Shown here piece after piece: positions 8,281-63,024 of a stretch of 64,000 nucleotides of DNA. A program made the position numbers and the translations under genes. This DNA comes from Octopus vulgaris. Lineage: Eukaryota. The notes beneath the pieces were generated by a model, which saw nothing but the letters and a program-made list of their open reading frames with translations, was not told where the DNA came from and ran no database searches. The stretch spans positions 28,210,001 through 28,274,000 of the forward strand of contig OX597833.1 in assembly GCA_951406725.2 (NCBI GenBank), read 5' to 3'. Each line of letters opens with the position of its first letter. The stretch's first letter is position 1.

Positions 8281-8416
8281 AGTTTGATTCAGTTCTATGT
8301 GACTTCAAGTTTTGTGGGGACCCTTCTCTTTCGTGTTATGGTTTGAATCCAGAGCACAAGACAAGCTCCTGTTGGGAGCCGGTGAAACTTGAAGCCGCAC
8401 AGAACAGAAGCAAACT
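8281..8416. repeat. small fold-back element with degenerate hammerhead motif
   Basis: Imperfect inverted repeat 8281-8312 / 8385-8416; hairpin gctcc-tgttg-ggagc then GAAACTTGAAG(T/C)C; CUGANGA core eroded. Confidence 0.45.
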
Positions 8417-8480
8417 GTAACTCCTACTAAATGTGTTGAATACCCTTTTCTTGTTTATCCACTCACTCCCCTCTCTCTCT

Positions 8481-8516
<36 letters not shown>

Positions 8517-8527
8517 TATATAGAAGG

Positions 8528-8578
8528 AGCTTCTACAGGACTAGTACTGTTTCATTCAAGAGAAATCTTCAGGAAGCT
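8528..8578 (-). ncRNA. type I hammerhead ribozyme (left copy)
   Basis: Reverse complement of 12691-12741. Confidence 0.75.
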
Positions 8579-8982
8579 ATTTAACAAGAATTGTATTAGC
8601 ATTTATACATTTAGAGGAGTGGTGGTGGGGGACTTTTGGGGGTAGGCATAGCGCAAAATATCATACTTGGGGGAGTGGTCAAGGTAATAAAAAAATAAAA
8701 AAATAAAAAATAAAAAAATAAAAAGATAAAATAAAATAAAAATAAAAAATATAAAAAATATAAAAAATATAAAAAATATAAAAAATATATATAAAAAAAT
8801 ATATAAAAAAATATATATATAAAATATATATATAAAAAATATATATATAAAAAAGGGGGGATAGAGTTATAGGTAAATAAGGAGATTCTCACTTATACCT
8901 ATACACACATGTATACGTATCTACACACACATACGCACATACACATATATCTACACACACATACGCACATACACATATATCT

Positions 8983-9027
<45 letters not shown>

Positions 9028-9405
9028 CCTACACATACACACATACATACATACAAATATACATATACATATATATATATACAATCCAATACAGGCCCAT
9101 TCCCTAATTTTAATTTTATTATCTTCATTTATTACTTTTGTTATCTTTGATCGCTAAGGCTAAGAATCCTGGCAATAGCTGCTTGTCCATTTGTCTGTCT
9201 ACTAGAAGGCAAGTACTCATTCCCGCACGCACACTCATTAGCACGTACATTCACCCATTCGTACACTCATACACATACACGTACGCACGCGTTATATTCA
9301 TACATACAAACATCTACATACGTTCACGTATATACACATACGTACTCGTACCTACAGATTCGTGTCTACACTTTAGGAGGCTAGTCTATACATATACACC
9401 AATAA

Positions 9406-9437
<32 letters not shown>

Positions 9438-9488
9438 CCGCATATACATACACACACACACATATATACTCCTACATACAGATACATA

Positions 9489-9528
<40 letters not shown>

Positions 9529-9736
9529 TACATATATATATACATACATACACATACATACACATACACACATACACACACATACATACACATATATATA
9601 CATACACAAACATATATACACACACATATATATACATACACACATACACACATACATACGTATACATACCTACATACATCTATACATCCATACTTACATG
9701 CATTTATACGCATACACACACCCATCTATATATATG

Positions 9737-9767
<31 letters not shown>

Positions 9768-10046
9768 TCACACATACATATACAAATCTACGCACACACA
9801 TACATACATACACGTATACGCATACACGCACATACACATATACATGCGTACCCATACACGTGCACACACGCACGCGCATCCATATAAATACACACACACA
9901 CATATATATATACACGTGTGCAAGCATACATACATACTCATACGCGCACACATACTTACAAATACATATATGCACACACTTACACACATATATATACATA
10001 CACATATACATGCATACATACATATATGCATACATACACACACGCA

Positions 10047-10100
<54 letters not shown>

Positions 10101-11110
10101 CATAGACATATATACACATACATACACATACACATACGTACACACACATATACACATATATATATACATATATATATATATATACACATATACGCATACA
10201 TATATACACATATACATACATATACATACACACACACATAAATATATACATATACACTGATACACATACCCATACATACACATGCATATACTTATATTAC
10301 TACATACTCACATATATAGACATATATACATATACACACATACATATATACATGTACATACACATACGCATGCATATATATATATATATACATACATATA
10401 TATACACATATATATATATATATATATATACATACATACACACACACACACACATACATATACACATATACATGTATACATACGCAAAAATGATACGCAT
10501 ATATACACATACACACACACAGACAGATGCATATACATACATATATATATATACAAACTACATATCTATATAAATACATACATGATACACATATACACAC
10601 ACATATATATACATTCATGCATATACATATACAAGTATACATATGTTTGTGTATGTATACTTGTATGTATATGCATGAATGTATATATATGTGTGTGTAT
10701 ATGTGTATTATGTATGTATTTATATAGATATGTAGTTTATATATATATATATGTATGTATATGCATCTGTCTGTGTGTGTGTATGTGTATATATGCGTAT
10801 CATTTTTGCGTATGTATACATGTATATGTGTATATGTATGTGTGTGTGTGTGTGTGTATGTATGTATATATATATATATATATATATGTGTATATATATG
10901 TATGTATATATATATATATATGCATGCGTATGTGTATGTACATGTATATATGTATGTGTGTATATGTATATATGTCTATATATGTGAGTATGTAGTAATA
11001 TAAGTATATGCATGTGTATGTATGGGTATGTGTATCAGTGTATATGTATATATTTATGTGTGTGTGTATGTATATGTATGTATATGTGTATATATGTATG
11101 CGTATATGTG

Positions 11111-11145
<35 letters not shown>

Positions 11146-11224
11146 GTGTATATGTGTGTGTACGTATGTGTATGTGTATGTATGTGTATATATGTCTATG
11201 TATGTATATATATGTGTGTGTATA

Positions 11225-11262
<38 letters not shown>

Positions 11263-11537
11263 TGCGTGTGTGTATGTATGCATATATGTATGTATGCATG
11301 TATATGTGTATGTATATATATGTGTGTAAGTGTGTGCATATATGTATTTGTAAGTATGTGTGCGCGTATGAGTATGTATGTATGCTTGCACACGTGTATA
11401 TATATATGTGTGTGTGTGTATTTATATGGATGCGCGTGCGTGTGTGTGTATGGGTACGCATGTATATGTGTATGTGCGTGTATGCGTATACGTGTATGTA
11501 TGTATGTGTGTGCGTAGATTTGTATATGTATGTGTGA

Positions 11538-11576
<39 letters not shown>

Positions 11577-11778
11577 TATAGATGGGTGTGTGTATGCGTA
11601 TAAATGCATGTAAGTATGGATGTATAGATGTATGTAGGTATGTATACGTATGTATGTGTGTATGTGTGTATGTATATATATGTGTGTGTATATATGTTTG
11701 TGTATGTATATATATGTGTATGTATGTGTGTGTATGTGTGTATGTGTATGTATGTGTATGTATGTATATATATATGTA

Positions 11779-11818
<40 letters not shown>

Positions 11819-12281
11819 TATGTATCTGTATGTAGGAGTATATATGTGTGTGTGTGTATGTATATGCGGGTATATATATATATATATATATATGTATATT
11901 TATTGGTGTATATGTATAGACTAGCCTCCTAAAGTGTAGACACGAATCTGTAGGTACGAGTACGTATGTGTATATACGTGAACGTATGTAGATGTTTGTA
12001 TGTATGAATATAACGCGTGCGTACGTGTATGTGTATGAGTGTACGAATGGGTGAATGTACGTGCTAATGAGTGTGCGTGCGGGAATGAGTACTTGCCTTC
12101 TAGTAGACAGACAAATGGACAAGCAGCTATTGCCAGGATTCTTAGCCTTAGCGATCAAAGATAACAAAAGTAATAAATGAAGATAATAAAATTAAAATTA
12201 GGGAATGGGCCTGTATTGGATTGTATATATATATATGTATATGTATATTTGTATGTATGTATGTGTGTATGTGTAGGTATG

Positions 12282-12340
<59 letters not shown>

Positions 12341-12690
12341 AGATATATGTGTATGTGCGTATGTGTGTGTAGATACGTATACATGTGTGTATAGGTATAA
12401 GTGAGAATCTCCTTATTTACCTATAACTCTATCCCCCCCTTTTTTTATATATATATTTTTTATATATATATTTTATATATATATTTTTTTATATATATTT
12501 TTTATATTTTTTATATTTTTTATTTTTATTCTTTTATTTTATCTTTTTATTTTTTTATTTTTTATTTTTTTATTTTTTTATTACCTTGACCACTCCCCCA
12601 AGTATGATATTTTGCGCTATGCCTACCCCCAAAAAGTCCCCCACCACCACTCCTCTAAATGTATAAATGCTAATACAATTCTTGTTAAAT

Positions 12691-12741
12691 AGCTTCCTGA
12701 AGATTTCTCTTGAATGAAACAGTACTAGTCCTGTAGAAGCT
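12691..12741 (+). ncRNA. type I hammerhead ribozyme (right copy)
   Basis: AGCUUC | CUGAAGA | u UUC ucuu GAA u | GAAA CAG uacuaguc CUG UA | GAAGCU: 6-bp stem I, complete core, stems II and III, GUA cleavage triplet. Confidence 0.78.
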
Positions 12742-12822
12742 CCTTCTATATAATAAATTAATTTTACTCTGCTATGTATTGAGTACCTTACTTACTGTGG
12801 TTAACCCCGAATCAACCCGGGA

Positions 12823-12865
<43 letters not shown>

Positions 12866-15326: not shown

Positions 15327-18300
15327 TTACTTATATAACACACCATACACATATTGTGTTAACTCTATGCAATGCACTTCCAGCTTGTTCTCTGAACTAC
15401 CAACTAGTTGCATACTCTCTTTAACCAGGTCCACCCATGTTACCTCCAAATCCCAGACTCAATACTTAACCCAATCCTTTCTTCCCAGGACAGCTACCTA
15501 CTGGAATACACCAGGGCAGAATTGTGGTTTAAGAATCACATGTAATCCCCCAAAACTTTTAGAGCTTTGGGAATTTTCAGAAAATTTTTGTAAATTTGTG
15601 TTCTACACACAGGAATTCATACAATTATGAACAAAATTTTCTGTTTTAAATTTTTTAACCCTGCTCCACCCCAAAAAATTCCTAAAAGTTTTACCTTTTT
15701 GAATTTTTTTGCCTAAATCCCAGTAACAGACCACCATTGGGTGCATCATCATTCCAATAAATGTATTTAATATTGAAGAACATCAATATGTCAGAGTGAC
15801 AAAAAAGTGAGGAAGGTAATCAGGTGGTCATGAGATGTACTAAAAATAACAGCCAAATTGCCCTTAAATGAAGCAAAAAATAATTTTTTTTTTACATAAT
15901 CATATGAATTCCCATATGTAGAACACAATTTCACAAACATTTTCAGAAAATTCCAAAAAATAAAGTTATGAGGTGTTATATGGGGTGCTTAAATCAGAAT
16001 TCCACCTACATGTCCATGTTTTTCCTACAGACCTGACTAACCTACAATAACCTAAAGGTTGATCAACTTACTAGAAGTAGCAGCCAAATTTCCTACCTAT
16101 CACACCAATTACTTGATCTTTCAGTAATAACATAGGATTTTCATCATTTTCTCATTATTTCTAATAATTATCAATTTTAACCTTTTAGGTCTGATCTCAT
16201 ATGCTCTTTACAACTACAAGACACTTAGCCATATCATCTTAAAATGGCAATGTTATGGACTATGTAATTTCTGATATATAAAATTAGAGGACATTCATGG
16301 TTAGAATACCTTTGATCAGACCTGAACCTGGAGCAAAACAGCTACAACCACCTTATATAAGAGGGAAAAAAAAAAGGGGGGGGGGGAACATGGAGTTTTC
16401 TCATGCTCAAGAACCTTCTCAGAGATGTAGATTCAAAGGATGTTTATGACTGTTTAATTTAAACTGAGTGCCCATAGCATAGTTGCTAACTGCATAGACT
16501 ATGGCATCAACAAGGTCTAGGTTCAATTCCTACTTAGCATGAAGACTGAATTTTTTTTTCATATATCCAGCAAATTTCTGCCCACACTTCAGAAAAATGT
16601 AAATTTTCTTTGAACAAATCCCAAAATCCAAGTATAAGGTTGAACAATTTTTACAATTCTAAAAAAATTTGAATTATTATCATTATTACTAGCTGTTACA
16701 CAACTAAAATCTGAATTTTTGGATTCATCAGTGCCAAACATTTGTGGCCTTAACAGTTGATACTTCCACTACCATATGCAACTTTACTCACAATTCCAGC
16801 TGAACAAGTCCTGTTTAGCTATAATCAACTAAAAATTTCTTCATTCATTTATTATTTTTACCCATTAGGTAATGTCCATATCATTGAGAATAATGTTTTG
16901 TTTTCTTTTGTAACCTTTTTAAATGGGGAAAATAAATGATTTAGATTTTAAAACGCTATATTTTATTGCCAAATATATCACTGCACCCATTGAATATGGA
17001 AATGAAAAGACCAACTAAGTCAAACTTTCATAGTAAATATGCGTATATCATCCATCGTCATCATCGTTTAATGTCTGTTTTCCATGCTGACCAGCCAGAG
17101 AGCTGTTCAGGCTCCAATTATCTGTTTTGGCATGGTTTATATGGCTGGATGTCCTGTCTAATACCAACCACTTCAGAGTGGTGTTGGGTGCTTTTTATGT
17201 GCCAATAGCATGGGTGCATTTGTATGGTACCAGCACAGAGTGAAAAGACAAGTTTGTTTCTTGGGGCGTATTTTTTTGGAGTGCCAGGATATAAAGGGAA
17301 AAGACTTCAGTTGGTCCTAGGCCACATTATCTGATATTTCCTAAGACTAGTGTGCGAATTGAAGATTTGGTTGCTATTTCCATCAGGTCAAGTAACCATG
17401 TAAAGATTTCTTTATTGGAATATGGGAGTCATGAACAGTAATGAAACCAATCTTTGCAGCTGTAAACAAATGATATTAAGATGAATTCCAAAGTGCTACC
17501 TTGCTTCAATTCTAATCAAAAGCAAACTTAAGCCTGCTGACATGACCCCTAACATTACCAGATTTTTTAAAAGGACTCACTTGATGCATGATAAAATGCA
17601 CACATCTAGTAAAAAGAGGTTTAAGAATTTGAAAACACTGTTATCTCAGTTTGCACCATTACCAATTATTTCTTTTTAATCCACTGATGTATGAAGTTAA
17701 CAAAAATGCTGAGCAAACAAAACTATAATTTAAATAATCACCTAACTGTTTGTATTACATACAAACAAACATTCTGGTTCTGTATATTTCCAACACAAAG
17801 CTGTACAAGCACTGTTTTTGTATGCAAAATAAAATACACACACACATTTATTTGAAGCTGAAACTTCCAATCTTCACAAAGTTGTAAATGCACATATATT
17901 TCTTGTTTCATATGATCCTGGATATGAAACTGCTGAAACAGATGATAGATTTTGGGAGAGCCATTCTGCCGATGGATCTCTCTCTCTCTCACACACACAT
18001 GCACATAAGTTGTATTATTAGTTGATTTGTCAAAGTATTTTACCACACAACTTGATTTTTCAATGAGTTCTCTGTCATGGTCTTTTTGAGTGTCTGGTAT
18101 TTATAATTTGTTGGTGGTGAGTGCAAGAGGGAAGAACGTGCATGTGAGTGTTTGTTGTATTCATGTATATGTCTGTAATTATTGGGGTAGTATTGTAGCA
18201 TCTTCATGGTAATGAGCATCCATGTGTATATGAGTGAGTTTACACAAACACACACTATAGTTCATCATTCACCACACAGACTCACTCCAATTGTAACAAC

Positions 18301-19135: not shown

Positions 19136-19646
19136 CTGTCAAAAAAAATCAACAACAACAACTGCTGTTAAGTGGGAAGGCTCAATAGCATTAATAACAA
19201 TGACATGATGGGAACATTAATGTAATCCTTTAATCTGCTCAGTATAGCAACTGGATGTTCCCTCAATAAATCCTCTACTGCTTGTAATAGGCCACATGAG
19301 TCAGTAAAGAAGCTTTTAAATTGATCTGTCCAATTTAGTACTCAAACCCCTATAAAATAGGGATCATTTGAATCTGTATGGAAGGTTCTATATAATCATG
19401 ACCTGATACAGTAACTAAATGTTCTTCTCAATAAATACTAGTTTCTGAAATAGAGACCACATGATCCAGAGGATATATATATATATATACACACACATAC
19501 ACACACTCACAAAATATGGGGGTTTAGTTCACAGGTGATCTAAATGACTAGGTATGCTAGGTAAGTGCAGTAATGGATTACTAGGGCTCCAAGGTTATAG
19601 CCAAGACAATAGTTATGGAGCCATTGTAGATTTCCAATATAGCGGA

Positions 19647-20317
19647 TATATAATTGTTAAAGAGAACAAACGTTAAGGCAAGGCAAACATCTCAAGTCAT
19701 ATGCATTATTATTATTATTATTGGAAAAAAATTTGAAGTCTTACAGCTGTTTCTGGAATATCCCATAGTAGGGGATATTCTGTCAGAGACAAATAGGGAA
19801 AATGAAAAGGGTATAGATTAATGAAATGATGACAGAAGACAGGAGAGAAGGAATAAGGAAATGAAGAAAGGGAAGAAAAAAGGCATAAAAGTTCACAGTT
19901 CAACTTTCCAGTCGTGCAGAAGTCCGTCCCTAAGTCCTTAGGTGCAATCCTGTGTAAATCCATGTAGGTTAAAATCCTGATAGTGTAAATATCTAGAAAT
20001 AGATGCGAACCTATGCTAACAGAATGGTAGCAGAGGTGGCTTTTAAGTGGTAAAAAGAAAGAAAAATAAATAAATAGAAAGAGAGGTAGAGAGAGTGAGA
20101 GAGGAAATTAAAGATTGACATTAAGGATAAAATAAGGTATATAAAAATATAGTGTCTAAGAATATAGTGTACACTATATTTATATTTATCTTATTTTATC
20201 CTTAACGCCAATCCTTAATTTCCTCTCTCACTACCTCTCTTTCTATTTATCCAACAATAATAATATAACTTGAGATGTTTTCCTTGCTTTAACGTTGTCC
20301 TCTTTAACAATTATATA
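19647..20317. repeat. intronic fold-back element with degenerate hammerhead and nested palindrome
   Basis: Inverted arms ~19647-19728 / 20248-20317; palindrome ~20072-20248 centred on aatatagtgtacactatatt; HHR-like motif on minus at 19738-19790. Confidence 0.7.
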
Positions 20318-21931: not shown

Positions 21932-22004
21932 CATTTGGAATAACATGGAATAGCTCTCATGTTGACACAGACAAAATAACTATTTAAAAAAAATAATAAC
22001 TTAC

Positions 22005-22217
22005 AAGTCTAGGTACAAAATATGGTGAGTCTGTCTCCAGGAGAAGTCGGTCAAGAGGAATGTGATAGGCTGTGTTGTGTACTTCAAGGGCCGATGGGTA
22101 GGTCACCAAAGGAGTGAGGCCAATGAAGAGGTTCGGGAAGTAGGACAGCCACTCCTTAGCATACTTGAATGATTTGGTGAAACAGTGGCAATGAATACGG
22201 TAATCCACTGGAACATA
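22005..22217 (-). CDS. TATDN2: TATDN2-like exon
   Basis: ttccag|YVPVDYRIHCHCF...IPLDRLLLETDSPYFVPRL|gtaag; TatD HCF and ETDSPY motifs. Confidence 0.93.
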
Positions 22218-22710
22218 CTGGAAATAAGAGTTGTTTATATTTGTAGTTGTAAGTGAAACAACAGAGAAGACAATGATATTATCAACGGAAACAAGAATGA
22301 AAGAGGAAAAACAATGCTAATTAAAACGATAATGGCAACGACAATAGTGATAGCACTAATGATAATGATGAATACGAGAATGAGTGAAGGTAATGGTGGC
22401 TATTATGATAATAACAATGGTTATGTAAATAATAATGGTTTACATTGTTTCTAATTTAAGTACAAGGCCTGGAATTCTTGGTTGGGGTGTAAATAATCGA
22501 TTAAATCATTCCCAATATTTGACTGGTTCTATATTTTAACATCCCTACAGATATTAAAGGCAAAGTTGGCTGTGGTGATGTTTGAACCCAGAACATAAAG
22601 AGCTGATCAAAATACTGCAAGACATTATTTTCTGATGCTTCAACAACTCTGGCAATCCACTACACATCTGTCAAAATTAGTTTACATAATACTACTGATG
22701 ACGATTTAAC

Positions 22711-24730
22711 AATGTGGTTGACAGGGCTATTAGACAAAAGAAACAGGCTTGGAAGGACTGGAAGAACGGAGGTAGCAGGGAACTGTATCAGACTGCCAGA
22801 AGGGAAGCTAGGAGACAGGTTTATTTAGCCAGAGGGGAAGCAGATAAGTAAAAAAATTTGCCAATGTTCTGTGCCGTGAGGACCAAAGACTTGAGGTATT
22901 TCGTGTTGCAAGACAGTGTGTAAGAGAGAATCGTGATGTGGTAGGAGAGAAATGTGTTCGCATGGATGATGGTTCACTTGCGCTAAATGAGGATGCAAAG
23001 AGAGAGGTTTGGAGATGCCACTATGAAAGGTTGTTGAATAAGGAAAATGAATGGGATAAAGAGAGTCTGCCGAATGTCGACCCAACAGAGGGACCAGCTA
23101 TCTGAGTTGACAGTTCCTTGGTAGTTAAGGCAATTACAAGCATGAAAACAGGGAAAGCCCCAGGCCCATCAGGAATTACTGCAGAGATGCTCAAAATATC
23201 TGGCAGTGTCGGCTGTAGCCTAGTCACCCATATAGTTAACCAGGTGATACACGGAGGAGTCATACCCAATGACTGGTGTAGCAGCATAATAGTCAACTGC
23301 TACAAAGGTAAAGGTGACGCCCTAGATACAAATAATTACAGAGGTATCAAGCTGATGGATCAGGTAATGAAGATTACGGAGAGGGTCATAGCCCAACTGA
23401 TTAGGGAGAGAGACAGCTTGGATGAGATGCAGTTTGGTTTTGTGCCAGGGAAAAGCACCACTGATGCCATATTTCTGGTGAGACAGCTGCAGGAGAAATA
23501 CCTAGCCAAAGATAAGCCCCTGTACCTGGCTTTCGTTGACATGGAGAAGCCTTCGACAGGGTCCCCCGATCCCTTATCTGGTGGTCAATGAGGAAACTAG
23601 GGATAGATGAATGGCTGGTGAAAGCTGTGCAAGCCATGTACAGGAATGCTGTAAGTAAGGTTAGGGTTGGCAACGTGTACACTGAAGAATTCAAGGTAGA
23701 GGTTGGGGTCCACCAGGGTTCAGTCCTCAGCCCCCTCCTATTTATCATAGTCCTCCAGGCAATTACAGAGGAATTCAAGACAGGATGCCCCTGGGAGCTC
23801 CTCTATGCTGATGACCTTGCTCTAATTGCTGAGTCACTATCAAAACTGGAGAAGTTTCAGGTGTGGAAGGAGGGATTAGAATCGAGGGGCCTTAGAGTCA
23901 ACCTAGCTAAAACCAAAGTCCTAATAAGTAGGAAGGTAGACAAACCACAAATACCTTCAGGTAGATGGCCCTGCTCGATCTGTAGAAAAGGGTAGGTGGA
24001 AACTCTATAAGATGTACCCAGTGTAAGCTATGGACACATAAGAGGTGCAGCAATGTCAAAGGAAGGCTAACTGGGAAGATAGTTTTTGTATGTGGCAGAT
24101 GCTCAGGACCAATAAACACTGAAAATCTGCAGAAAACTTCTGTCACTTTCCAGGGGGAAAAACTAGAAGTAGTTGATAGCTTCCGTTATCTAGGTGACCA
24201 AGTCAGTAGTGGGGGTGGGTGTACTGAAAATGTAACTGCTAGAGTAAGAATAGCCTGGGCAAAGTTCAGGGAGCTCTTACCTCTGCTGGTGACTAAAGGC
24301 CTCTCGCTCAGAGTAAAAGGCAAACTGTATGATGCATGTGTACGAACAGCCATGCTACATGGCAGTGAAACATGGGCCATGACTGCCGAGGACATGCGTA
24401 AGCTCGCGAGAAATGAAGCCAGTATGCTCCGATGGATGTGTAATGTCAGTGTGCATACTCGACAGTGTTAGTACCTTGAGAGAAATGTTGGACCTAAGAA
24501 GCATCAGCTGTGGTGTGCAAGAGAGACGATTGCGCTGGTATGGTCATGTGCAGAGAATGGATGAAGATAGGTGTGTGAAAAAGTGCCAATCCCTAGTTGA
24601 GGGAACCTGTGGAAGAGGTAGACCCAGGAAACCCTGGGACGAGGTGGTGAAGCACGACCTTCGAACTATTGGCCTCACCGAGACCTTTGGAAATATGCTG
24701 TGCGTGAGAAGACCCGGCAGGACAAGTGAG
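22711..24730 (+). mobile_element. RTE-clade LINE, 5'-truncated and frameshifted, antisense within a TATDN2 intron
   Basis: GKAPGPSGITAEML, NYRGIKL, QFGFVPGKSTTDAIF, AFVDMEK, GVHQGSVLSPLLF, LLYADDL, MLHGSETW, RRLRWYGHV split across frames. Confidence 0.93.
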
Positions 24731-24829
24731 TCCAGCCCACTTATACATGTCTTTCCTCCCTTGGACACACAAAGCCCTGTTGAGGCAATCCGACGACAGG
24801 CACCCATGCCAACCTCCCTTCATTGGACA

Positions 24830-25430
24830 CTAAACTCTGCTTGCGAAAACCTGTTGGGGCAAGTGAAATCGGAATCGAAATTGAACCAATCCTATGACTG
24901 GCACCCGGCAGTTGCCAGGACTGCTGGACTGACTCCTGTGCAGGTGGCAAGTGAAGAAACACCATTTCGGCCCTGTGCTTGAGGAGATCCATTGAGTCAA
25001 GTACACCAACATCAAAATCAATGGAAACTGCAGTTGTGATCCCTGTGCTGGTGGCACGTAAAAAGCACCATCTGAACGTGGCCAATGCCAGCGCCGCCTA
25101 GACAGGCTTCTGTGCCAGTGGCACGTAAAAAGCACCATCCGAATCGTGGCCAATGCAAGCGCCGGCTTGACTGGCTTCCGTGCCGGTGGCACGTAAAATG
25201 CACCAATCCGATCGTGGCCGTTGCCAGCCTCGCCTGGCACCTGTGCAGGTGGCACGTAAAAAGCACCCACTACACTCACGGAGTGGTTGGCGTTAGGAAG
25301 GGCATCCAGCTGTAGAAACACTGCCAGATCAGACTGGAGCCTGGTGCAGCCTTCTGGCTTCCCAGATCCCCGGTCGAACCGTCCAACCCATGTTAGTGTG
25401 GAGAATGGACGTTAAACGATGATGATGATG
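24830..25430 (+). mobile_element. SINE-like element with tandem gtggcacgtaaaaagcacc units and a (gat)n tail; related copies ~3270-3470, 7960-8260, 44340-44540, 56050-56330, 61900-62110, 62240-62530
   Basis: Repeated motif, shared 3' body ggagtggttggcgttaggaagggcatccagctgtagaaa and tail gttaaacgatgatgatg. Confidence 0.75.
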
Positions 25431-25627
25431 ACACACAAAGCTGCATATTATGGGGCCATGGGTGTAATCAATTAGAATGATCCTACTATTTAACTGGCAC
25501 CTTATTTTATCAATACCAAAAAGGGTGAAAAGGTAATGTCAATCTTGATGAGAGTTGAATTCAGAAACCAATAACACCAGTTTTTATTGTAACCATGAGT
25601 GACAGTACAATAAGAAAAGATACTGAC

Positions 25628-25757
25628 CTTCTTAAGGATCTGTAGACAATCATCCTGTGCCTCCCTACAATGAATCACCAGTGGTTTCTGTACAGTAAGA
25701 GCCAGCTTGATCTGATGAATGAACACTTTCTTTTGAAGAGATGCTGTCTCCCAGAAC
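25628..25757 (-). CDS. TATDN2: TATDN2-like exon
   Basis: ttccag|(R)FWETASLQKKVFIHQIKLALTVQKPLVIHCREAQDDCLQILKK|gtcagt; TatD IHCR motif. Confidence 0.93.
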
Positions 25758-25945
25758 CTGGAATAACAATATTGCAGAAATATAGATTAGTGAGATTATG
25801 AGAATGAACGAGCAAGAGGAAGGACAGAGCAGAAGATACAAGAGACAGAATGAGATTGGTAGAAATAAACAAGGCAAAGAAGAACAGAATCTTCCTCCTT
25901 CCAGTAAATTGGGGAATCAAAAGTGTAGTCTCAGGACTATCTTAC

Positions 25946-26114
25946 CTTCCAGAATAATCTAGACCAATTTCTCCAATAGCGACCACTTTGGGTTGTTCTA
26001 TGCATTCTCGGAGTCCCTTCTCAGCAGCACTATCAAAGTTCTCAACATTTTTGGGGTGACAGCCCATAGCAAACCACATCTCACTTTCATTATTCAGACT
26101 TTTCCACAGACTTC
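25946..26114 (-). CDS. TATDN2: TATDN2-like exon
   Basis: tacag|(G)SLWKSLNNESEMWFAMGCHPKNVENF...PKVVAIGEIGLDYSG|gtaag; TatD GxHP and GEIGLDY motifs; phases 1 and 2 fit the neighbouring exons. Confidence 0.93.
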
Positions 26115-26226
26115 CTGTATTTTAACAAATAATTTCTAATTTAGGTATGTACAAAGTCAAAAATTTCAAGGGAAAAAGAAAAACAAATTATATTGATCTT
26201 AGTACTTCATTTATTTCATTGATATA

Positions 26227-26276
26227 TTCCACCATTGAATTTTGCTTTTTATAAAAAGCAAAATTCAATGGTGGAA
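26227..26276. repeat. perfect 50-bp palindrome, no spacer
   Basis: ttccaccattgaattttgcttttta / taaaaagcaaaattcaatggtggaa. Confidence 0.9.
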
Positions 26277-26890
26277 AGATTCAATTCTTTAGCATTTAAA
26301 CCAGCCATATCTAGCCCAAATATTCTGCCCATTTTATGTTCATAATAGCCAGATCCAATCATCTACACCTACCCTACAACACCATTCTAAAAATAACAGC
26401 AATTACTTAATCAAAATCTTGAAGCTACAAGATAATGCGTGACTAAATCAAAACAATCTGACAGAGTAATCTGAAAGCTCAACTCAGAACTAGTGGGATG
26501 CAAATAAATACAAGGCCAGGCACACAACACCAGTAGAAGTGTGTGTATCAAAAACTATTTGATACTGAATAGAGAGGACAAGATGCGGGTATATAATCGA
26601 GGACTGTGTGAGAAATAAAATGTATAATGCTGTATAGTAGTTAATGTACAGGATTAAATGATAGTGTATGGTAGCAAATAAAGATATATGAGATGTAGGA
26701 TGTGTGATGTATGATAAAGGACTACATGAGGTGTGACAGAGTATGGCAGTGAACACAGAGGACTGAGGTGGGTGTAAGATGTGTGTTGTTAAGATGATTA
26801 TGTAAGATGTGTGATGTATATGGTGATAACTATAGAGACTGTGTATATGTGATAGTATATGTAAAATGTGTGTGTGTGTGTGTGTGTGTA

Positions 26891-28134
26891 CCATAAAAAC
26901 CGATGTAATTTATGCACCTTTTTTTTTCACAAAAATAAACTTCAGGGGGTGCATGAATTACATGAACAGATCATTTCTAGAATTTTCTTGAAATTGTTTT
27001 TTGTTGGTAAAAGATGTACGAAACAAACATTTGTACTGGAAGTTGACTCAATGTCAGAATAAGTTTTTACAGAAAAAGTATTAGCTTAAATATAATGAAG
27101 TTAACTTTTATTTATGTTGGACAGTATAATGCTTACTTCTTCTGTATAAAATTACAAAAACAATTTAATGGTTAACTACTTTATGAAGTCTGACGGTGGT
27201 AAACACAGTCTGGGCCATATCTTACATTGTTTGGAGTTTCTACCTATCAAAATGGAGCACCATTGACATACATAGTGACATGGATATTCTTGACTGAAAA
27301 AATGTAATATGGATAATCTTGATTGTATGGTTTTATTTTTGTCTGTTTATTACTAGGCACAGTTTTGTCGTACAGTTTACGCCAATTTTGAACATTGGTT
27401 TCCTTAACATTAAAATGCCTTTCGGCAGCTCTATTGCCGCATTCAAACGTATATTCAACACATTTAATTTCTCCTTTGCAGTAAGCGATTCATCACTTCT
27501 GCCCATACTGACAATAATGGTATGAAAAATTTTAAAGTTTGCTTGACATTTTATAAATGTGAAAGGGATTAAAATTTTGATAGTACAATTCAAAGGTTCC
27601 AATAAGAATAGGCAGAAAAGAATTGTTTACATAATCATTTTGATTAGTCACCTTCCTCCCTCAGTTGAGTAAAAGTGTCATCCAAGCTGATGCTTACTGG
27701 TAATTAAACTTAATTTGCAACACTTGTGTATATTTACCAGCTTTGTTTTTGTTGGTAATTCTTAACAACTTTTCCTGTGATCATGATTTGAGAAGACATA
27801 CAGCAGTATGCTAAAGATTGGACATAATCTCTTGATGGCAAGAAATGTAAAATAAAGTTTATTATAAACAACACTTTGTAATTCAATAGCTTTCAATGTG
27901 ATACTTGTTAAACAGAAATTATTTTTATTTAATGAAAATTTAATAAAATCTAATAAATAACTGAAATTATGCTAAATACAACTAAATTGAAAACCTTTTG
28001 CCCCTGGTTATATCAACAATTCTGAAAACTTTCAGGTACAAATTTTACATGTGTAGAAGCTTTTTTTAACAAATTTTATCCCGAAAATCACCTGCATAAA
28101 TGCACGGGTGTGCAAATTACATGGGTTTTTATGG
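26891..28134 (-). mobile_element. pogo-family DNA transposon, internally deleted
   Basis: TA-flanked TIRs ccataaaaacc.atgtaattt / aaattacatgggtttttatgg; frameshifted Brinker-type DNA-binding domain TAKEKLNV/VEYTFECGNRAAERHFNVKETNVQNWRK at ~27375-27490. Confidence 0.8.
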
Positions 28135-28457
28135 TATATGGAGGTGTGTAAGACATGATTATAACTGGTAGTGAATGTAGAGGACTATATGAGATGTAAT
28201 GTGCATGAAGGTGTATGGTAGCAGAAATAGAGGACTATATGTGGTGTTTGTAAAATGTAGGATATAGTATTTGGTAATAAATATAGAGGATTGTGTGTGT
28301 GATAATGTATGACTGCAGAGACGAAAGAGTACATCGTCAAGAGATCTGAAGAGACGATGAATTGCAGACTTGTCCAACCCATGTCAAAATAAACAAAACA
28401 GGTGCCAAAGCAACAACAACAACAATTATGATAATATAATGAATAAATGTCAATTAC

Positions 28458-37643: not shown

Positions 37644-37654
37644 AACTGTATATT

Positions 37655-41315: not shown

Positions 41316-42313
41316 ACCTATACCAAACCAACAACACGTTGACCTTGCTGATATATTTAAAAAGAAGGCAATCTAACATCAACAAGTGAACATTATTCAT
41401 ATTACTCACATAGAGATATTTGGCTCAATCAGAATTGTTTGATAACTAGCAAATATTTAGGCAGACTGCCAAGACAAAAATCGCAGAATTTGATCTGTAC
41501 AGGTGTCTACACGTCTGAAATCTTTAAAAACTCCAGTATTACAATAAAGCAAATCAGTATGTCCAGAGTTGTATTTAAAACTAGTCTAAGAGATCTTTGT
41601 AAATTCTGATTTTACTAGACCCCACAAAATAACACTATAGTGTACATGACAACTAATAAGAGTCTGATAAATGTTTAGGTATATAATTGTCTAGGTATAT
41701 AATTACTGAGCACTTATAGATTACATTAACATGTGGTTTCTATTTAAGATAATTAATGACAGAATTTAAACTGATCAACATGATGTTACAATCAAATTCA
41801 AGCTGTTGGAATGAGACTAAGTCTATTTGCCTTTAACCAACTTGATACCTCATACGTTCATTGCTTATACTCTGTATTTGCCTTATTAAAGTCTAAAAGC
41901 AAAAAAAAAAAAAAAAACAGTGAATGTGACATCCACATAATAGAATAAAATCAAATAATTTTGAAGACATGGATATGTAATGTATATAGCTGCAGGCATG
42001 GCTGTGTGGTAAGAAGCTTCCTTTTCAGCTACATGGTCTCAGGTTCAGCCCCAGTGAGTAGACATAAACTGAAAGAAGCGTGTGTGTGTGTGTGTATGTA
42101 TATATATATATATATAACATTATATAAAAGGGCTTAGTAAAATAAATTACTTTGCCACATACTGAACTCATTAGAAATAGCAGCTAAAAAAAATTTTTTT
42201 TTTAGCTATTTCTAATACTTAAAGAAAATCTCTCTCAGATAGTGTTTGCTCAAACCAACTCACGAAAGTATGGGGGTAAAAACATTAAAAAACTCACAAG
42301 TGCAAAGGTTATT

Positions 42314-42365
42314 TGAGAACATACGTTTCTAGATTAGTCAAATCGACATTTCTTTCGTCAGCTCA
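42314..42365 (-). ncRNA. minimal type I hammerhead ribozyme (left arm)
   Basis: Reverse complement of 42884-42935 with one change in the stem III loop (cgtatg vs cgtacg). Confidence 0.6.
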
Positions 42366-42883
42366 GAACTCCTTGATTCGGATTTGGGAACACTGAAAGT
42401 GGGAGCATACCCTTTTGGCTTCTTATCACCACCGGACATCCGCTCGAACTAACAGTGCTAACAAATTCAAAATATGCAAGCGAAGAATTTCTGCTCTCCC
42501 CCTTCCACCAGCGTGGGTTAAAATTGGCAAACACTATGTTTTATCGGTGAAAACCGAAGCATTAAACAGAGAGAAATGATTCGCCTTAAATGGTCCCTTT
42601 ACATACTGAATACTTGGTGAAATTGATTAATAATTAATTAATTTTACCCTCAATTGTTGAAATTATAATTCATTTCTCTCTGTTTAATGCTTCGGTTTTC
42701 ACCGATAAAACATAGTGTTTGCCAATTTTAACCCACGCTGGTGGAAGGGGGAGAGCAGAAATTCTTCGCTTGCATATTTTGAATTTGTTAGCACTGTTAG
42801 TTCGAGCGGATGTCCGGTGGTGATAAGAAGCCAAAAGGGTATGCTCCCACTTTCAGTGTTCCCAAATCCGAATCAAGGAGTTC

Positions 42884-42935
42884 TGAGCTGACGAAAGAAA
42901 TGTCGATTTGACTAATCTAGAAACGTACGTTCTCA
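42884..42935 (+). ncRNA. minimal type I hammerhead ribozyme (right arm)
   Basis: UGAG | CUGACGA | a AGA aau GUC gauuu GAC uaa UCU a | GAAA C guac G UU | CUCA; palindromic stem III ACGUACGU. Confidence 0.68.
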
Positions 42936-44037
42936 AATAACCTTTGCACTTGTGAGTTTTTTAATGTTTTTACCCCCATACTTTCGTGAGTTGGTTTGAG
43001 CAAACACTATCTGAGAGAGATTTTCTTTAAGTATTAGAAATAGCTAAAAAAAATTTTTTTTTTAGCTATTTCTAATGAGTTCAGTATGTGGCAAAGTAAT
43101 TTATTTTACTAAGCCCTTTTATATAATGTAATATTTTGAATTCGCCTTAAATGGTCCCTTTACATACTGAATACTTGGTGAAATTGATTAATAATTAATT
43201 AATTTTACCCTCAATTGTTGAAATTATATATATATATATATACATATAGAAGATAAAAGATAGATAATTACAGGGATCCTAGGGGGAGTATTAGGGAACC
43301 TCAACGAAGAGATATAGATGACAATTGACCATTGCACTCAAGAAACTTATCAGGAATTATTATTACGATTATTTCATTAATATGTGATAATCATGGAACA
43401 TTTGTTGTTTCATTTTTAATTCTTCTTCACTTTTTATCTCACATTCCAACTCCACCCCCACCACCCTCCCTCCTGAAATGTAAGTAGTCACGTCACTCCT
43501 CTACAACAAGAAACCCATTCTCTCTACTTCTTACCCACCTAGCAAATAGTTCCCCCTCCCCACTCAGGATTCATAATCTCGCAAGCTGCATAACAACCCC
43601 ACTAGTGCTCATGGCAGAAAAAAAATAAGTACCCAGTACCTACTGTAAGGTGTTTGGCATAGGAATGATATCTAGCCATAGAAACTATGCCAGTCCCTGG
43701 GCCCATTAGATTCTGTCAAACAGTACAACCCATACCAGCATGTCACATGGATGTTAAATGATGATAAATGAATGAATGAATAAAGAGGGCAAAGTATAAT
43801 AATCTAGAAAATTGAAAGTTTTTGAAAGTTCTGAGAATATTTTGATTGATGTTTTTTTTTTCTAGTTATCTCATAAAAATCTTTTTTATCAAGTCCATGG
43901 TTGCATATTGTGTGGTCAGATTTCTAAAAAGTCATATTCTTTGAATAAAGAATAGAGTTGAAGACAGAGTGTTTAATTAGTAAACAAAGGGATTCAGCTA
44001 GTATGCTATTCATAACTGAAGACAGTAGAGATATTCT

Positions 44038-47375: not shown

Positions 47376-47776
47376 GGATCTTTTCGGTTTGAACGGCAGT
47401 TTTTTCTAGCGGTGTCATATGAAATTGTCACCCATAATTATGACCCTAGTATCGATCTATTGCATTTCAATCTATTTTAGGGTTAGGGGTGGGGGGAAGG
47501 ATATCTTTTTTTCTTCACAAATGTAAATAAACCCAATCTGTTTCTTAAACGAGGGACATATTCATACGGCACAGAATGTTGTTTACCTCAATGGACGTCA
47601 TTAATTGGTTGAAATTGAAGGAAAAAACAACAAATATCTTACAAACTATAGAATTTTTTCAATAAAGCCAAGAGAAAAAGATGTTTTATAAACACATTCT
47701 ACCAGTATACGAAGTTTAAAATTTTTTAGTTACCTAAAAATTATGTTAAAAACTGCCGTTCAAACTGAAAAGATCC
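47376..47776. mobile_element. MITE with ~29-bp TIRs and 8-bp TSD, nested in a SINE (~47268-47990)
   Basis: ggatcttttcggtttgaacggcagttttt / aaaaactgccgttcaaactgaaaagatcc; TSD gaagcccg at 47368-75 and 47777-84. Confidence 0.9.
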
Positions 47777-57090: not shown

Positions 57091-57096
57091 TGTATA

Positions 57097-58791: not shown

Positions 58792-58799
58792 TTTATATA

Positions 58800-59020
58800 T
58801 ACAAGGGGATACTGAAAAGTTCCTCACTTTAGGTAAAAGAAAATATAGGGGACTCAATTAATTATGATTTTATTCAGCATATTCCCCTCTCAGATTAACA
58901 CACTTATTGCAGCAGTCCTTCAGTTTTTCTAAGCCCTGTAAAAGAACTCAGAAGGTTTGGCCTCCAACCAGGCTTTTTGCAAAACCTTTAAAGCCAGGAA
59001 CTTTTCAGCACCACCTCATG
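58800..59020. mobile_element. mariner-type MITE
   Basis: acaaggggatactgaaaagttcct / aggaacttttcagcaccacctc. Confidence 0.75.
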
Positions 59021-59699
59021 TGTGTGTGTTATACCATTGTCATCATTTAAAATCCACTTTCCATGCTGTCATGGGTTGAATAGCTTGACAGGAGCTGGCA
59101 AGTCAGAAGATTGTGCAAAGCCCTACTGCCTGCTTTGGCATGGTTCCTACAGCTGGATGTCCTTCCTAACACCAACCACTTAACAACATGGACTGAGTGT
59201 TTTTTACAGGGCACCAGCAACAAAACCCCCCAACTAAAAGATAATAGTATCAGGGAAGGTGCTACTTGAGAGGAATATAAGCAGAGGGACAGGAATAGAT
59301 GCCTTGTAAAAAATATTACATAGCTACCTTTGTATGAGAGAGGGAGAGAGAAAAAATGGTGAAGTTGTAGTGGGAATGGGTACATTCATGTTACAGAAAG
59401 GTGATATGTAAATGAAATGGGACCAAAAAATGAATAAGGTGAATGGGTGGATAAGTTGGCAAGATTGCAAAAGGAGAATGGGAGGTGAAGGGGAAGGTTT
59501 GTTAGGAGGCTACGTTGTAGGGAAGAGATTCAACATAATAGGGGAATACAACAGATGGCAAGAACACATGGGTGGAAGGGAGAGGTTTTGGAAAAATAGG
59601 ATGTTGTGGAGAGGTTTGTCAAGGATGGATTGTGTGCAGGGTCTGTGCCATGAACTTAAAGGACATGCCTTTATTTTACTTATCTGGATGGGTCTTCTC

Positions 59700-61225
59700 A
59701 AGCACAGCAAATTGCTAATTGTCTCAGTCCTTTGTCATCTTTGTGAGGCTCTGCTTCTTTAAATCATTTTTAACCGCTTCACCCCATGTCTTCCAAGGTT
59801 TTCTTCTTCCACAGGTCCCCTCCACATTTAGAGATTGGCACTTCTTTATGCAGCTGTCTTCATCCATATGCATCACATGACCATACTAGTGCAGTCATCT
59901 CTCTTGTATACTACAAACCCAATTTATAATAATGCTTCTTATACCTAATTTTTCTCTCCACACATTTAAACTTTGTTGTACATGCATATGGACATTGCAC
60001 ACTCAACAAAGCATGTTGGTTTCGTTTCATTTCAAGCCTTAGCATGTCCTCTGCAGTCATGGCCCACATTTTCTACCATGTTGCTACTGTTCATACACAA
60101 GCATCATTCATACAATCTACTTTACTCTCTGAGGGAGAGGTCCTTTGTTCAACCAAATTCTAATTTGAGCAACTACACTTTCAGAACATCCTCCTCCACT
60201 GCTAATTTGGTCACTTAGATAATGAAAACTTTCTGTTACCTCTAAAGATCTCCCTGGGCATTGCAGAAAATCTATTTTCTGTGTTCTTAGTGTTTGTATT
60301 TTCTTGTACATCTGCCACACACAAAGACTACTTTCTCTGTTAAACTTCTTGTGATTCCACTGCACTGCTCATTTATCCATAGCTTGCACTGCCAATTCAT
60401 ACCTACATCTTTACTACATATCGAGCAGAACCATTTTCCTGAATAGATTAGTAATTTGTCTACTTTCTTGTTGACTAGTAGTACTGTGATTTTTGCTAAA
60501 TTAACTCTCTCTGTGGCCCTTTCATTCTGAGCCTTGCTTCCACACCTGATATTTCTTCTCTAATTCTACTATAGATTCAGCTATAAGAACAAGGTCATCA
60601 GCATAAAGAAGCTTCCATGAGCAATCACTTTTAAATTCCTCTGTTGTGACCTGGTGGACTATAAAACAAGATGGGGCTAAGAAATGAGCATTGGTGAACT
60701 ACCTACACACTAAACTTGTTGCTACACACGTTGCTGATTTTCACCTTACAGACTGCATCCCTGTACATGACTTGGGCAGCTCTCACCAACCACTCATCTA
60801 CCCCTAGCTTCTGCAGCAACTACCTGATGGTTTATTTTTTACTAAATGCTTCTCCTGCAGGTACCTTGCTAGGAAGATAGAGTCAGTAGTGTTTCTCCCT
60901 GGCACAAAACCAATCTACACCTCTAGGTTAACTATCTTCCTAATGAGTTGAACTATGACCCTTTCTGTAACTTTCTTCATCTGGACCAACAATTTGATAC
61001 CTCTGTAATTACTTCAGTCTACAGTAGTTGACTAGAATGCTAGTCATTGGGTATGACCCCTTTCTGGATGACCTGATTAACTATACAAGTGACTAAGCTA
61101 TATTCCACTTTACCAGATATTTTAAGCATCACAGTGGTAATTCCAGATAGGCCAGGGGCTTTCCCTGTCTTCATATCCTTAATTATTGCCTTATTTATCA
61201 TGTAACTACCAACTCAGATAACTCT
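59700..61225 (-). mobile_element. degraded RTE LINE (same family as 22711-24730)
   Basis: MKTGKAPGLSGITTVMLKISG, KSDCSWKLLYADDLVL, LEVTESFHYLSDQISSGGGCSES. Confidence 0.85.
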
Positions 61226-61262
61226 ATCATACATATACATATATATATATATATATATAAAT

Positions 61263-61725
61263 TAAAAAGTAAGAGTCAAAAGGAAGAGTTAGTATGGTTA
61301 GGCAGCTTTTTAATCACTACAAATGTTTCGATACATACAGATCCTCGTATATACAGGATTTAAAGTTAATTTTAAATTAAATTATGTAATGATTTACCTA
61401 TATAAGAAGATGTATATGTATCTTCTCAGGTGATACTCAGTTGCTGTCTCCATAAGTAAATCTAGATTTCCATGCCACAACATCCATGGCTTCTTCTTTA
61501 AATCCTGTATATACGTTGATCTGTATGTATCAAAACATTTGTAGTGATTAAAAAGCTGCTTAACTGTACTTACTCTTCCTTTTGACCCTTTTACTTTTTA
61601 TTTTCACACACAAGGAATACCTATGACTAGAATTGGTAGCATACCATAAAAATACTACTGGCTAAGGGTGAATGAGCTCTATTTGTACTCTTATACATTC
61701 TTAACAGAACACACCTCAACTGACT
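61263..61725. repeat. fold-back element with degenerate hammerhead, between (TA)n tracts
   Basis: Inverted arms 61263-61365 / 61496-61600; minus strand 61313-61434 reads AUCAC cugagaa GAUACAUA...UAUGUAUC GAAA CA uu UG UA GUGAU. Confidence 0.7.
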
Positions 61726-63024
61726 ATATGTATATATGTATATATATATAAAGAAAAGGGAGGTACACAGGATAAAAACTTTTTTTTTCAGCACTTTCAT
61801 CTCTTTGTGGGATTCATCATGAATCCTTCAAAGGGATGAAAGCACTAAATAAACTCCTTTTTCTCAATATATAAATCTGTACATACCCTAAAACCAAGGT
61901 GCCATGTAAAAAGCATTGATGTGGGTGCTAGTGCCATGTAAAAAGCACTCAGTTCACCTTATAAAGTGGTTGGCATTAGAAAGGGTATCTAGTTGTAGAA
62001 ACCAAGCCAAAACAGATTATGGGACCAAGTGTGGCCCCTGACCAATTCCTATCAAGCTGTCCAACCAATGTTAGCATGGAAAATGGGCGTTAAATGTTGT
62101 TGATGATGACGATGACTTCAGTCTATACACGTGCGTGTACATGTGTATAGATTTGGTAGAATCCATCCATTGGAACCTGAAAGAAGCCCATAGTATATAT
62201 ATATATATATATATGCCTTACTGGCATGTGAACAAAACATTTGAGCGAGGTCGTTGCCAGTGCCGCTGGGCCGACTCCTTTGCAGGTGGCACGTAAAAAA
62301 ACACCATTTCGAGCATGGCGGTTGCCAGTACCGTCAGACTGGCCCTCATGCCGGTGGCACGTAAAAGCACCCACTACACTCTCGGAGTGGTTGGCATTAG
62401 GAAGGGCATCCAGCTGTAGAAACTCTGCCAGATCAGATTGAAGCCTGGCGCAGCCATCTGGTTCGCCAGTCCTCAGTCAAATCGTCCAACCCATGCTAGC
62501 ATGGAAAGCGGACGTTAAATGATGATGATATATATAAAGCTAATAAGTAACAAGGATGTCCAGGTATCCTTGTTATTTGCTTTTTATTCACCTAACTTCG
62601 AGCTGTGCAGACTATACTGAATTGGCTTGGTCCCCCAATTTAAGTACCTAATTCAACTGAGTCACGCATTGAGTCGAACCAGGGGCAGCTCACGAAGGGG
62701 AATTTTCCTTGTATTGTTTGTCTCGCACTCTCTGTTTTTTCGTTAAAAAAAGTCCGTTTCCTTGTTTGATTTTATGTTTTCGTTTCTCGTTGTGTTCTAC
62801 GTTTATTTGTGGTGTCCTGTACTCATATATGCATGTATATATACATATAGATGTAAGTATGTACATATATGTATGTATATATGCATATGTTTTATTTATA
62901 TTATTATATGACCGAACGCACGCGTTGTTTTCTCTTCTCCAAGTAAGTTTTTATTTATTTATATATATATATATATACTTTTGTTTAGTTTGGACTAACA
63001 TATGTTGTGATCCATTAATAAAGT

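What the first reader, a model, noticed from the sequence alone, without database searches (positions are those of the whole stretch)
8281..61870. Several unrelated hammerhead fold-back families share one architecture and a (TA)n neighbourhood
Seen: about six elements (8281, 8511, 19647, 42117, 61263, 61794) with no obvious sequence similarity to each other. Each combines an inverted repeat, a CUGANGA/GAAAC..NUH motif (complete or decayed) and adjacent (TA)n, and several have a one-sided tail. A PLE RT/GIY-YIG remnant sits at 5395-6850. Inference: a diverse and abundant class of non-autonomous ribozyme retroelements mobilised by PLE enzymes with a preference for TA microsatellites, roughly one per 10 kb in this window. 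Such elements are easily masked as low-complexity DNA, and they could both target and spread microsatellites.
Basis: inference. Interest (0 to 1): 0.75.

Follow-up and report, generated by a model that had tools for sequence, protein, structure and literature searches.

The report
Hammerhead fold-backs left by Penelope elements
Four of the six mirror-image repeats carry an outward-facing hammerhead ribozyme motif and end on TA microsatellites, the known footprint of Penelope-like jumping genes (likely the Hydra group), and one of them is a 561-base non-coding unit of a very abundant repeat family that likely borrows those elements' enzymes.

Summary
Largely real, largely a known kind. B (8511-12826), C (19496-20314), D (42117-43228) and E (61259-61604) hold all 6 type I hammerhead hits of the window (0.05 expected); cores are intact in B and D, one base off in C and E. 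All point outward, and each element has an arm ending within 1 nt of (TA)n. A keeps only a 3' half; F is a truncated remnant at best. The remnant at 5367-6502 is a decayed Hydra-clade PLE. Inverted 5'-truncated copy, one-sided tail, hammerhead and (TA)n targeting are all published for PLEs and Hydra (Craig 2021), and this scan found such stubs before in other genomes. Non-autonomy is supported only for D: 561-nt tandem period, no ORF, strong fold, read depth thousands of times the flank. B, C and E may be plain truncated ends. Not found in my searches: a small tail stem-loop shared by B (looser in A, D) and three published Hydra consensus ends, and 1.4 kb of microsatellite doubled inside B (one case). 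No genome was held, so no genome-wide test.

The parts
5367..6502 (-). Decayed Hydra-clade PLE ORF (part of RT region, thumb/linker, GIY-YIG-type endonuclease), many stops and frameshifts, a SINE piece inside
   Evidence: profile of 72 full-length relatives: best iE 1.3e-8 at 5873-5718; also 5642-5460, 6502-6269; relatives carry RWK, DKT and CxCX5C marks named in Craig 2021 section 11
8281..8447 (+). Element A: 32-nt arms (8281-8312, 8385-8416), decayed hammerhead 3' half, candidate tail with degenerate stem-loop at 8420; probable old remnant
   Evidence: no hit with the full descriptor
8511..12826 (.). Element B: 4.25-kb palindrome (8-nt centre near 10647), about 66% simple sequence per arm, 68-nt tail on the right, (TA)n on both sides
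12691..12741 (+). Intact type I hammerhead of B, right arm (predicted cut after 12735); same layout as the Hydra hammerheads tabulated by Craig 2021
8528..8578 (-). Identical hammerhead of B, left arm
12766..12787 (+). Tail stem-loop of B matching a motif seen in three published Hydra consensus ends
   Evidence: by eye; only strict hit in the window, 0.07 expected
19496..20314 (-). Element C: long arm with hammerhead (19790-19738, one core base missing), about 150-nt tail on the left, nested hairpin 20070-20250, 70-nt short arm, TSD-like (TA)nCACACA on both sides
42117..43228 (.). Element D: inverted arm 42117-42579, spacer 42579-42667 identical to 43140-43228, direct arm 42670-43129, 99-nt tail; tandem period 561 nt; no ORF; member of a very high-copy family
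42884..42935 (+). Hammerhead of D with intact core and palindromic helix III (dimer type); mirror copy at 42365-42314 with one CpG-type change
61259..61726 (-). Element E: long left arm with hammerhead (61434-61313, one core base off, about 30-bp helix II), 109-nt short arm to 61604, possible tail 61605-61726
61751..61868 (.). Element F: small hairpin folded back within a hammerhead-like core; doubtful remnant
   Evidence: no descriptor hit

Best explanation
The fold-backs are head-to-head pairs of hammerhead-bearing 3' ends, likely written into (TA)n tracts by the reverse transcriptase-endonuclease of Penelope-like elements, most likely of the Hydra clade, and D is likely a non-autonomous 561-nt passenger while B, C and E may be either passengers or truncated ends of full elements. 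Proposed cycle: (1) an RNA carrying the hammerhead and tail is bound by the PLE protein, possibly at the tail stem-loop (inferred); (2) the endonuclease nicks both strands of a TA tract (shown in vitro for a Poseidon element, inferred here); (3) each target end primes a cDNA, one at the tail end and one at the tail start, which gives two outward-facing arms and one tail (two start sites shown for Poseidon, inferred here); (4) the two 5'-truncated copies join at a few bases of microhomology, sometimes after an extra template jump, as in D's repeated 89 nt and C's nested hairpin (junctions seen, mechanism inferred); (5) whatever lies in the copied RNA is doubled, including 1.4 kb of simple sequence in B (seen once). 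Cleavage by the ribozymes is untested; D has one hammerhead per sense strand, so this copy could not by itself cut out a monomer.
For: 6 of 6 descriptor hits lie in the arms and face outward. Arm ends sit on (TA)n in 4 of 4, controls 0 of 6. Same architecture is described for PLEs, and Penelope-13_HM (Hydra) has an inverted 5'-truncated copy with hammerheads on both strands. B's hammerhead follows the Hydra layout, and U cut sites as in D are common there. A Hydra remnant lies in the window and a Hydra family with (TA)n preference is listed for an octopus. B's tail holds the only strict hit to a stem-loop read off published Hydra ends. D: exact 89-nt repeat, period 561; longest stop-free run 60 codons; fold z -7.5; summed contig depth 233,000-1,530,000 in 16 of 19 bins against about 45 in the flank in run X1, same pattern in the other three runs laid. 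In D the inverted arm stops within 2 nt of the unit boundary, as expected of a defined unit.
Against: The descriptors were written after seeing the candidates; Rfam and a strict descriptor found nothing. No sequence link between any fold-back and an autonomous element: none to the local remnant, 0 of 5 hammerhead words and one chance coding match in the published consensus file, tails do not score as Hydra ORF starts. D's 5' boundary and its spacer-arm junction were not shown in other copies (began at the boundary). D's 5' rod alone folds at z -3.9, no better than a SINE control at -3.8, and no two-sided compensation was seen in it among the 39 listed variants I checked. The stem-loop match in D is ambiguous: a common family variant favours another partner strand. 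Naiad and Neptune PLEs also target microsatellites. B's near-zero loop and C's nested hairpin fit self-priming as well as two primings.
Confidence: 0.75

Rival explanations
1. All elements, D included, are just 5'-truncated pseudo-LTR pieces of autonomous PLEs; there is no non-autonomous family, and D's 561-nt period is a one-off double truncation.
For: Most PLE insertions are 5'-truncated, with partial tandems and inverted copies; Cervera 2014 read dispersed and opposite-strand hammerheads this way; single copies only for B, C, E; earlier notes of this scan reached this verdict elsewhere.
Against: D has 340 nt after and 220 nt before the hammerhead without an ORF, while Hydra hammerheads lie about 100-430 nt from the 3' end and close behind the ORF; depth does not fall steadily toward its 5' end; predicted rod begins at the unit boundary.
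Confidence: 0.3
2. Same enzymes, but the mirror arm is made by a single cDNA folding back on itself (self-priming), not by two primings.
For: B's arms end within about 8-14 nt of each other after 2.1 kb; C has a nested hairpin; Arkhipova 2013 argued for self-priming from junction palindromes; the long arm carries the tail in B, C and D.
Against: In E the possible tail is on the short arm (tail unverified); in D the arm stops exactly at the unit boundary; Poseidon protein nicks and extends both strands from two start sites.
Confidence: 0.3
3. They are MITEs or fold-back DNA transposons, and the hammerhead-like words are incidental.
For: Inverted ends flanked by TA also fit Tc1/mariner derivatives; true TIR elements occur in the window (47376-47776 with an 8-bp duplication, 36833-37645).
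Against: Those TIR elements have no hammerhead hit and are 159 nt or more from (TA)n; the fold-backs have unequal arms, one-sided tails and an internal tandem repeat.
Confidence: 0.06
4. B and D are assembly artefacts from fold-back reads.
For: Arms nearly identical; most B differences are in simple repeats.
Against: Both resume into unique flank after a tail and (TA)n; arms differ at a few transitions; D's flank and family are in independent runs; older, diverged examples of the same layout (C, E) stand beside them. No read spanning B or D was seen.
Confidence: 0.05

Closest known systems
Hydra-clade Penelope-like elements (Craig et al. 2021, PMC8557442; e.g. Penelope-13_HM, Hydra-1_Obim)
   Same: Type I hammerhead near the 3' end with the same layout, (TA)n targets, inverted 5'-truncated copy, tail on one side; a Hydra remnant is in the window.
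   Different: No ORF in any fold-back; tails of about 68-150 nt rather than 30-40; no sequence match to the one published octopus Hydra family beyond two short words; B carries 1.4 kb of simple sequence per arm.
Animal non-LTR retrozymes (Cervera and de la Pena 2020, PMC7229834; Li, Clavereau, Pollet 2026, 10.64898/2026.07.22.740005)
   Same: D is a non-coding, highly self-paired unit with one type I hammerhead and a head-to-tail repeat; such units are proposed to be non-autonomous PLE derivatives.
   Different: D has 1.16 units, not two hammerheads in tandem; it is longer than the 170-400-nt circles described for invertebrates; it is inserted as a fold-back with a tail; no circular RNA or cleavage shown.
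Minimal hammerheads of PLEs, dispersed or paired on opposite strands (Cervera and de la Pena 2014, PMC4209133)
   Same: Variable sequence, palindromic helix III, long helix II, pairs 100-700 bp apart on opposite strands.
   Different: B's pair is 4.1 kb apart and has a helix III that could close in a monomer.
Penelope/Poseidon insertion structure and chemistry (Arkhipova 2013, PMC3846280; Frangieh 2024, PMC11167929)
   Same: Inverted pLTR, optional tail, AT-rich targets, capture of other sequence in trans, two RT start sites that define the tail.
   Different: There the tail is the ORF start; here the tails did not score as ORF starts.

Membership tests
EN+ Penelope-like insertion | Inverted 5'-truncated copy, 3' ends outward | tested here: met
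   for B, C, D, E
EN+ Penelope-like insertion | Tail on one side only | tested here: met
   B and D clear; C likely; A, E uncertain
EN+ Penelope-like insertion | Type I hammerhead near the 3' end | tested here: met
   intact in B, D; one base off in C, E; not met for A, F
EN+ Penelope-like insertion | RT plus GIY-YIG ORF in the element (autonomous member) | tested here: not met
   profile hits only at 5367-6502
Hydra clade | RWK, DKT, CxCX5C linker, CxxC/CxH in the protein | tested here: met
   met by the relatives of the 5367-6502 remnant; the remnant itself is too decayed to show all; not applicable to the fold-backs
Hydra clade | Insertion into (TA)n | tested here: met
   not specific to Hydra
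Hydra clade | 3'-end sequence similarity to an autonomous family of the same genome | tested here: inconclusive
   no match to the local remnant or to words of published consensi; shared stem-loop only; genome not held
Non-LTR retrozyme | Two or more tandem units each with a hammerhead | tested here: not met
   D has one full unit plus 89 nt; other copies not seen
Non-LTR retrozyme | Non-coding, highly self-paired unit of a few hundred nt | tested here: met
   D: (circular fold z -7.0)
Non-LTR retrozyme | Self-cleavage and abundant circular RNA | not testable with these tools
   only assembled contigs were available
MITE / TIR DNA transposon | Symmetric terminal repeats with a fixed TSD | tested here: not met
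   met by the control at 47376-47776
any | Prior entry in Dfam or Repbase | not testable with these tools
   libraries not available

The most novel reading that the evidence does not exclude
This animal genome hosts a SINE-like swarm of unrelated, non-coding hammerhead RNAs, D's family alone in the order of ten thousand copies, that dock on Hydra-clade PLE protein through a small conserved tail stem-loop, are copied from circles or tandems, and land as fold-backs in TA tracts, at times doubling kilobases of microsatellite. That would be a direct genomic signature that retrozyme-like units are integrated by PLE enzymes and would name the cis signal.
Probability: 0.35. Interest if true: 0.62.

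Novelty: new member of a known kind. Interest (0 to 1): 0.38.

Why it matters
The architecture itself is published, so the finding as worded is not a new class. Its value is narrower. Retrozymes are thought to ride on PLEs from co-occurrence and pLTR homology in vertebrates, and the review read here says no conserved motif points to the partner; D shows the PLE insertion signature on a non-coding unit, and the tail stem-loop is a testable candidate for that motif. A young, very abundant family gives thousands of junctions to decide between two primings and self-priming, which Craig 2021 lists as open. Such elements are easily filed as MITEs, unknown repeats or simple repeats; the text of the 2026 octopus repeat annotation has 0 occurrences of 'ribozyme'.

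Tried and rejected
No genome held, so no genome-wide scan. Rfam: no hammerhead among 120 matches. Strict descriptor: 0 hits. Pfam did not recognise the remnant (0 families in 3 frames) or its relatives; the first protein search found nothing; tblastn with short relatives did not show the RT part, the later profile did in part. A 27-nt D word was absent from metagenome, prokaryote and viral collections. Idea that the shared GARTAC word in 4 of 5 tails (0.5% of 5000 random sets) encodes the ORF start: not supported, best p about 0.12 for D's tail. tRNA head for D: 0 genes by ARAGORN. Expression: no RNA holder listed; in the one run guessed to be RNA, D's depth relative to DNA was like that of an unrelated flank repeat, which says nothing firm. 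Circular junction of D: not seen, but the tool skipped 43216-43255 and my stretch began at the boundary. Local fold energies of the B, D, A, F hammerheads alone are not above shuffles. A 3'-half-only scan is weak: 2 of 8 strict sites lie in arms. Splice-acceptor-like AG at or in the hammerheads of B and C was noticed but not tested. Literature searches found no description of these families or of the tail stem-loop; the library lacks most subscription papers, bioRxiv supplements were closed, and I read only parts 2, 52 and 53 of 59 of the Craig supplement plus search hits.
Full report
Setting. The window is AT-rich animal DNA full of SINEs, RTE pieces, mariner pieces and simple repeats, with exons of a TatD-like gene. 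That it is an octopus is my recollection of the SINE ends and was not tested. No whole genome was held.

Inverted repeats. A self-comparison of the window and pairwise alignments show inverted repeats at all six places. A has 32-nt arms (27 matches). B is a palindrome from 8511 to 12758 with 10 substitutions and 68 gap columns in 2151 columns, an 8-nt centre and a 68-nt extension on the right; about 66% of each arm is simple sequence. C has a 70-nt short arm, a long arm on the minus strand and a nested hairpin. D has 465-nt arms with 4 substitutions. E has a 109-nt short arm. F is a 35-nt hairpin. Cross-comparison gave one 21-nt AT-rich match between B and D (E 0.012) and otherwise nothing of note, and no second copy of any element in the window.

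Hammerheads. Rfam gave 120 matches at E up to 1, none a hammerhead. A strict descriptor gave 0 hits; dropping the helix II demand gave 4 against 0.175 in 40 shuffles. A relaxed type I descriptor, written after I had seen the candidates, gave 6 hits on both strands against a mean of 0.05 in 60 shuffles; all 6 lie in B, C, D and E and all read toward the outer end. The 4 hits in B and D have intact cores; C and E are one base off. B's motif has the layout of the Hydra hammerheads in Craig's File S2, and cleavage after U, as predicted for D, is common in that table. In D's family a variant in about half to three quarters of the depth closes helix II next to the core. A has a helix II and a 3' half resembling several rows of that table, with one mismatch in each arm, but no 5' core. 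F folds back inside a core-like word and is not hit.

TA tracts. Each of the four hammerhead-positive elements has an arm end within 1 nt of a (TA) run of four or more; 2.0% of 5000 random positions lie within 5 nt; six hammerhead-negative inverted repeats are 159 nt or more away. Tail ends also lie at or near TA runs, but I placed those ends partly by the runs, so they are not independent evidence. C has the same (TA)n plus six bases on both sides, like a target duplication. Two ordinary TIR elements in the window, one with an 8-bp duplication, have neither hammerhead nor TA tract.

The PLE remnant. Pfam and the word-indexed search missed it. The full search returned 22 proteins at E up to 0.001, one with RT motifs. 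A profile from 72 full-length relatives found hits the window only at 5367-6502 on the minus strand (best 1.3e-8). The relatives show the RWK, DKT and CxCX5C marks of the Hydra clade, of which Craig 2021 says that canonical hammerheads are readily found and almost all families insert into (TA)n; the supplement lists an octopus Hydra family with that preference. The remnant is heavily broken, has no hammerhead hit and shares no sequence with the fold-backs.

Element D. The 89-nt spacer is repeated exactly at the end of the tail, giving a period of 561 nt; the inverted arm stops within 2 nt of the unit boundary at a microhomology of 3-6 nt. The longest stop-free run is 60 codons. The unit folds at z -7.5 linear and -7.0 circular, with the hammerhead inside a long rod; the rod alone scores -3.9, like a SINE control at -3.8. 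Of the 39 listed family variants that I checked, several common ones keep or add rod pairs, some break them, and none in the rod is compensated on both sides; the tool hid 35 more. Twenty of 24 listed runs, from 9 studies and four organism labels, hold part of D. In the 4 runs laid, summed contig depth over the unit is thousands of times that of the flank (X1: 233,000-1,530,000 in 16 of 19 bins, 24,000-36,000 in 3, flank about 45). The tool warns that this is no copy number; I read it as order 10^3-10^4 copies. Few contigs ran past the ends of the stretch (10 of 3323 in X1), a weak hint of a 5' boundary that is confounded by the edge of the stretch and by divergent subfamilies.

A tail stem-loop. 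Four of five candidate tails share a six-letter word within 45 nt of the arm end (0.5% of 5000 random sets). It does not mark an ORF start. Reading the six Hydra consensus sequences of Craig's supplement, I saw by eye a four-base stem around a short inner hairpin, with a two-base 3' bulge and a following ACY, in 3 of 6 (two at the 3' end, one at the 5' start), a variant in 2 and nothing in the octopus one, which lacks a pLTR. As a descriptor allowing transitions it hits the window once, 7 nt into B's tail, with one pair exchanged on both sides (0.07 expected in 200 shuffles); looser forms add D and A but have null means of about 0.7, and D's partner strand is ambiguous. The motif was found after the fact and needs a proper test. 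Craig's main text has 0 occurrences of 'stem-loop' or 'hairpin'.

Mechanism. Craig 2021 (passages, section 11, three supplement parts) describes inverted 5'-truncated copies, one-sided tails and microsatellite bias, and non-autonomous Chlamys elements. Frangieh 2024 (first half of the text) shows a Poseidon protein nicking and extending both strands of AT-rich DNA from two RNA start sites that bound the tail, without needing hammerhead cleavage. Arkhipova 2013 (passages) shows the same anatomy, capture of foreign sequence in trans, and argues for self-priming. Cervera 2014 (first half) reports hammerhead pairs on opposite strands. Cervera 2020 (passages, section 14), the 2020 review (passages) and Li 2026 (parts 1-3 of 5) define retrozymes and link them to PLEs. 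I commit to two-ended priming with joining at microhomology, about 0.55 against 0.3 for self-priming; B and C fit either, D and perhaps E favour two primings. All mechanistic steps are inferred from these papers and the junctions; none was shown for these elements.

Verdict. The class is known, and earlier notes of this scan report similar stubs in other genomes (unchecked AI notes). D as an abundant non-coding passenger (about 0.65), the tail stem-loop and the doubling of microsatellite in B are the parts worth following. Interest 0.38; new member of a known kind.

Noticed in passing
window 47376-47776: 401-bp element with 29-nt terminal inverted repeats and an exact 8-bp target duplication inside a SINE; Merlin-like MITE by recalled criteria. 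Used as a control.
   Followed up: partly
window 36833-37645: TIR element of about 800 bp with internal repeats, Tc1/mariner-like ends by recalled criteria; no hammerhead.
   Followed up: partly
window 26227-26276: Perfect 50-nt palindrome in unique sequence, far from TA tracts, no hammerhead.
   Followed up: no
window 34415-34507; 1237-2031; 15519-16002: Older inverted repeats (72-77% alike) without hammerhead hits.
   Followed up: no
window 21984-29751 (-): Exons of a TatD-family nuclease gene with a long serine-rich exon; RTE and SINE copies lie in its introns.
   Followed up: no
window 12680-12696 (+) and 19800-19780 (-): Pyrimidine-rich runs ending in AG at the start of B's helix I and within C's core, recalling the intron end at the Drosophila virilis Penelope hammerhead; B's simple-sequence interior might be a retained intron.
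   Followed up: no
window 42755-42846: Two words of 10 and 11 nt are shared with the 5' end of the published Hydra-1_Obim consensus, in reversed order; seen by eye, may be chance.
   Followed up: no
window 43033-43076 and 43175-43207: Two near-perfect AT-rich hairpins inside D; the second ends about 20 nt before the 3' end.
   Followed up: partly
window 42790-42824: Variable segment of the D family: loose ends in three runs show a subfamily with a shorter version.
   Followed up: no
window 61259-61868: E and F lie side by side around one TA-rich tract, suggesting repeated insertion at the same site.
   Followed up: no
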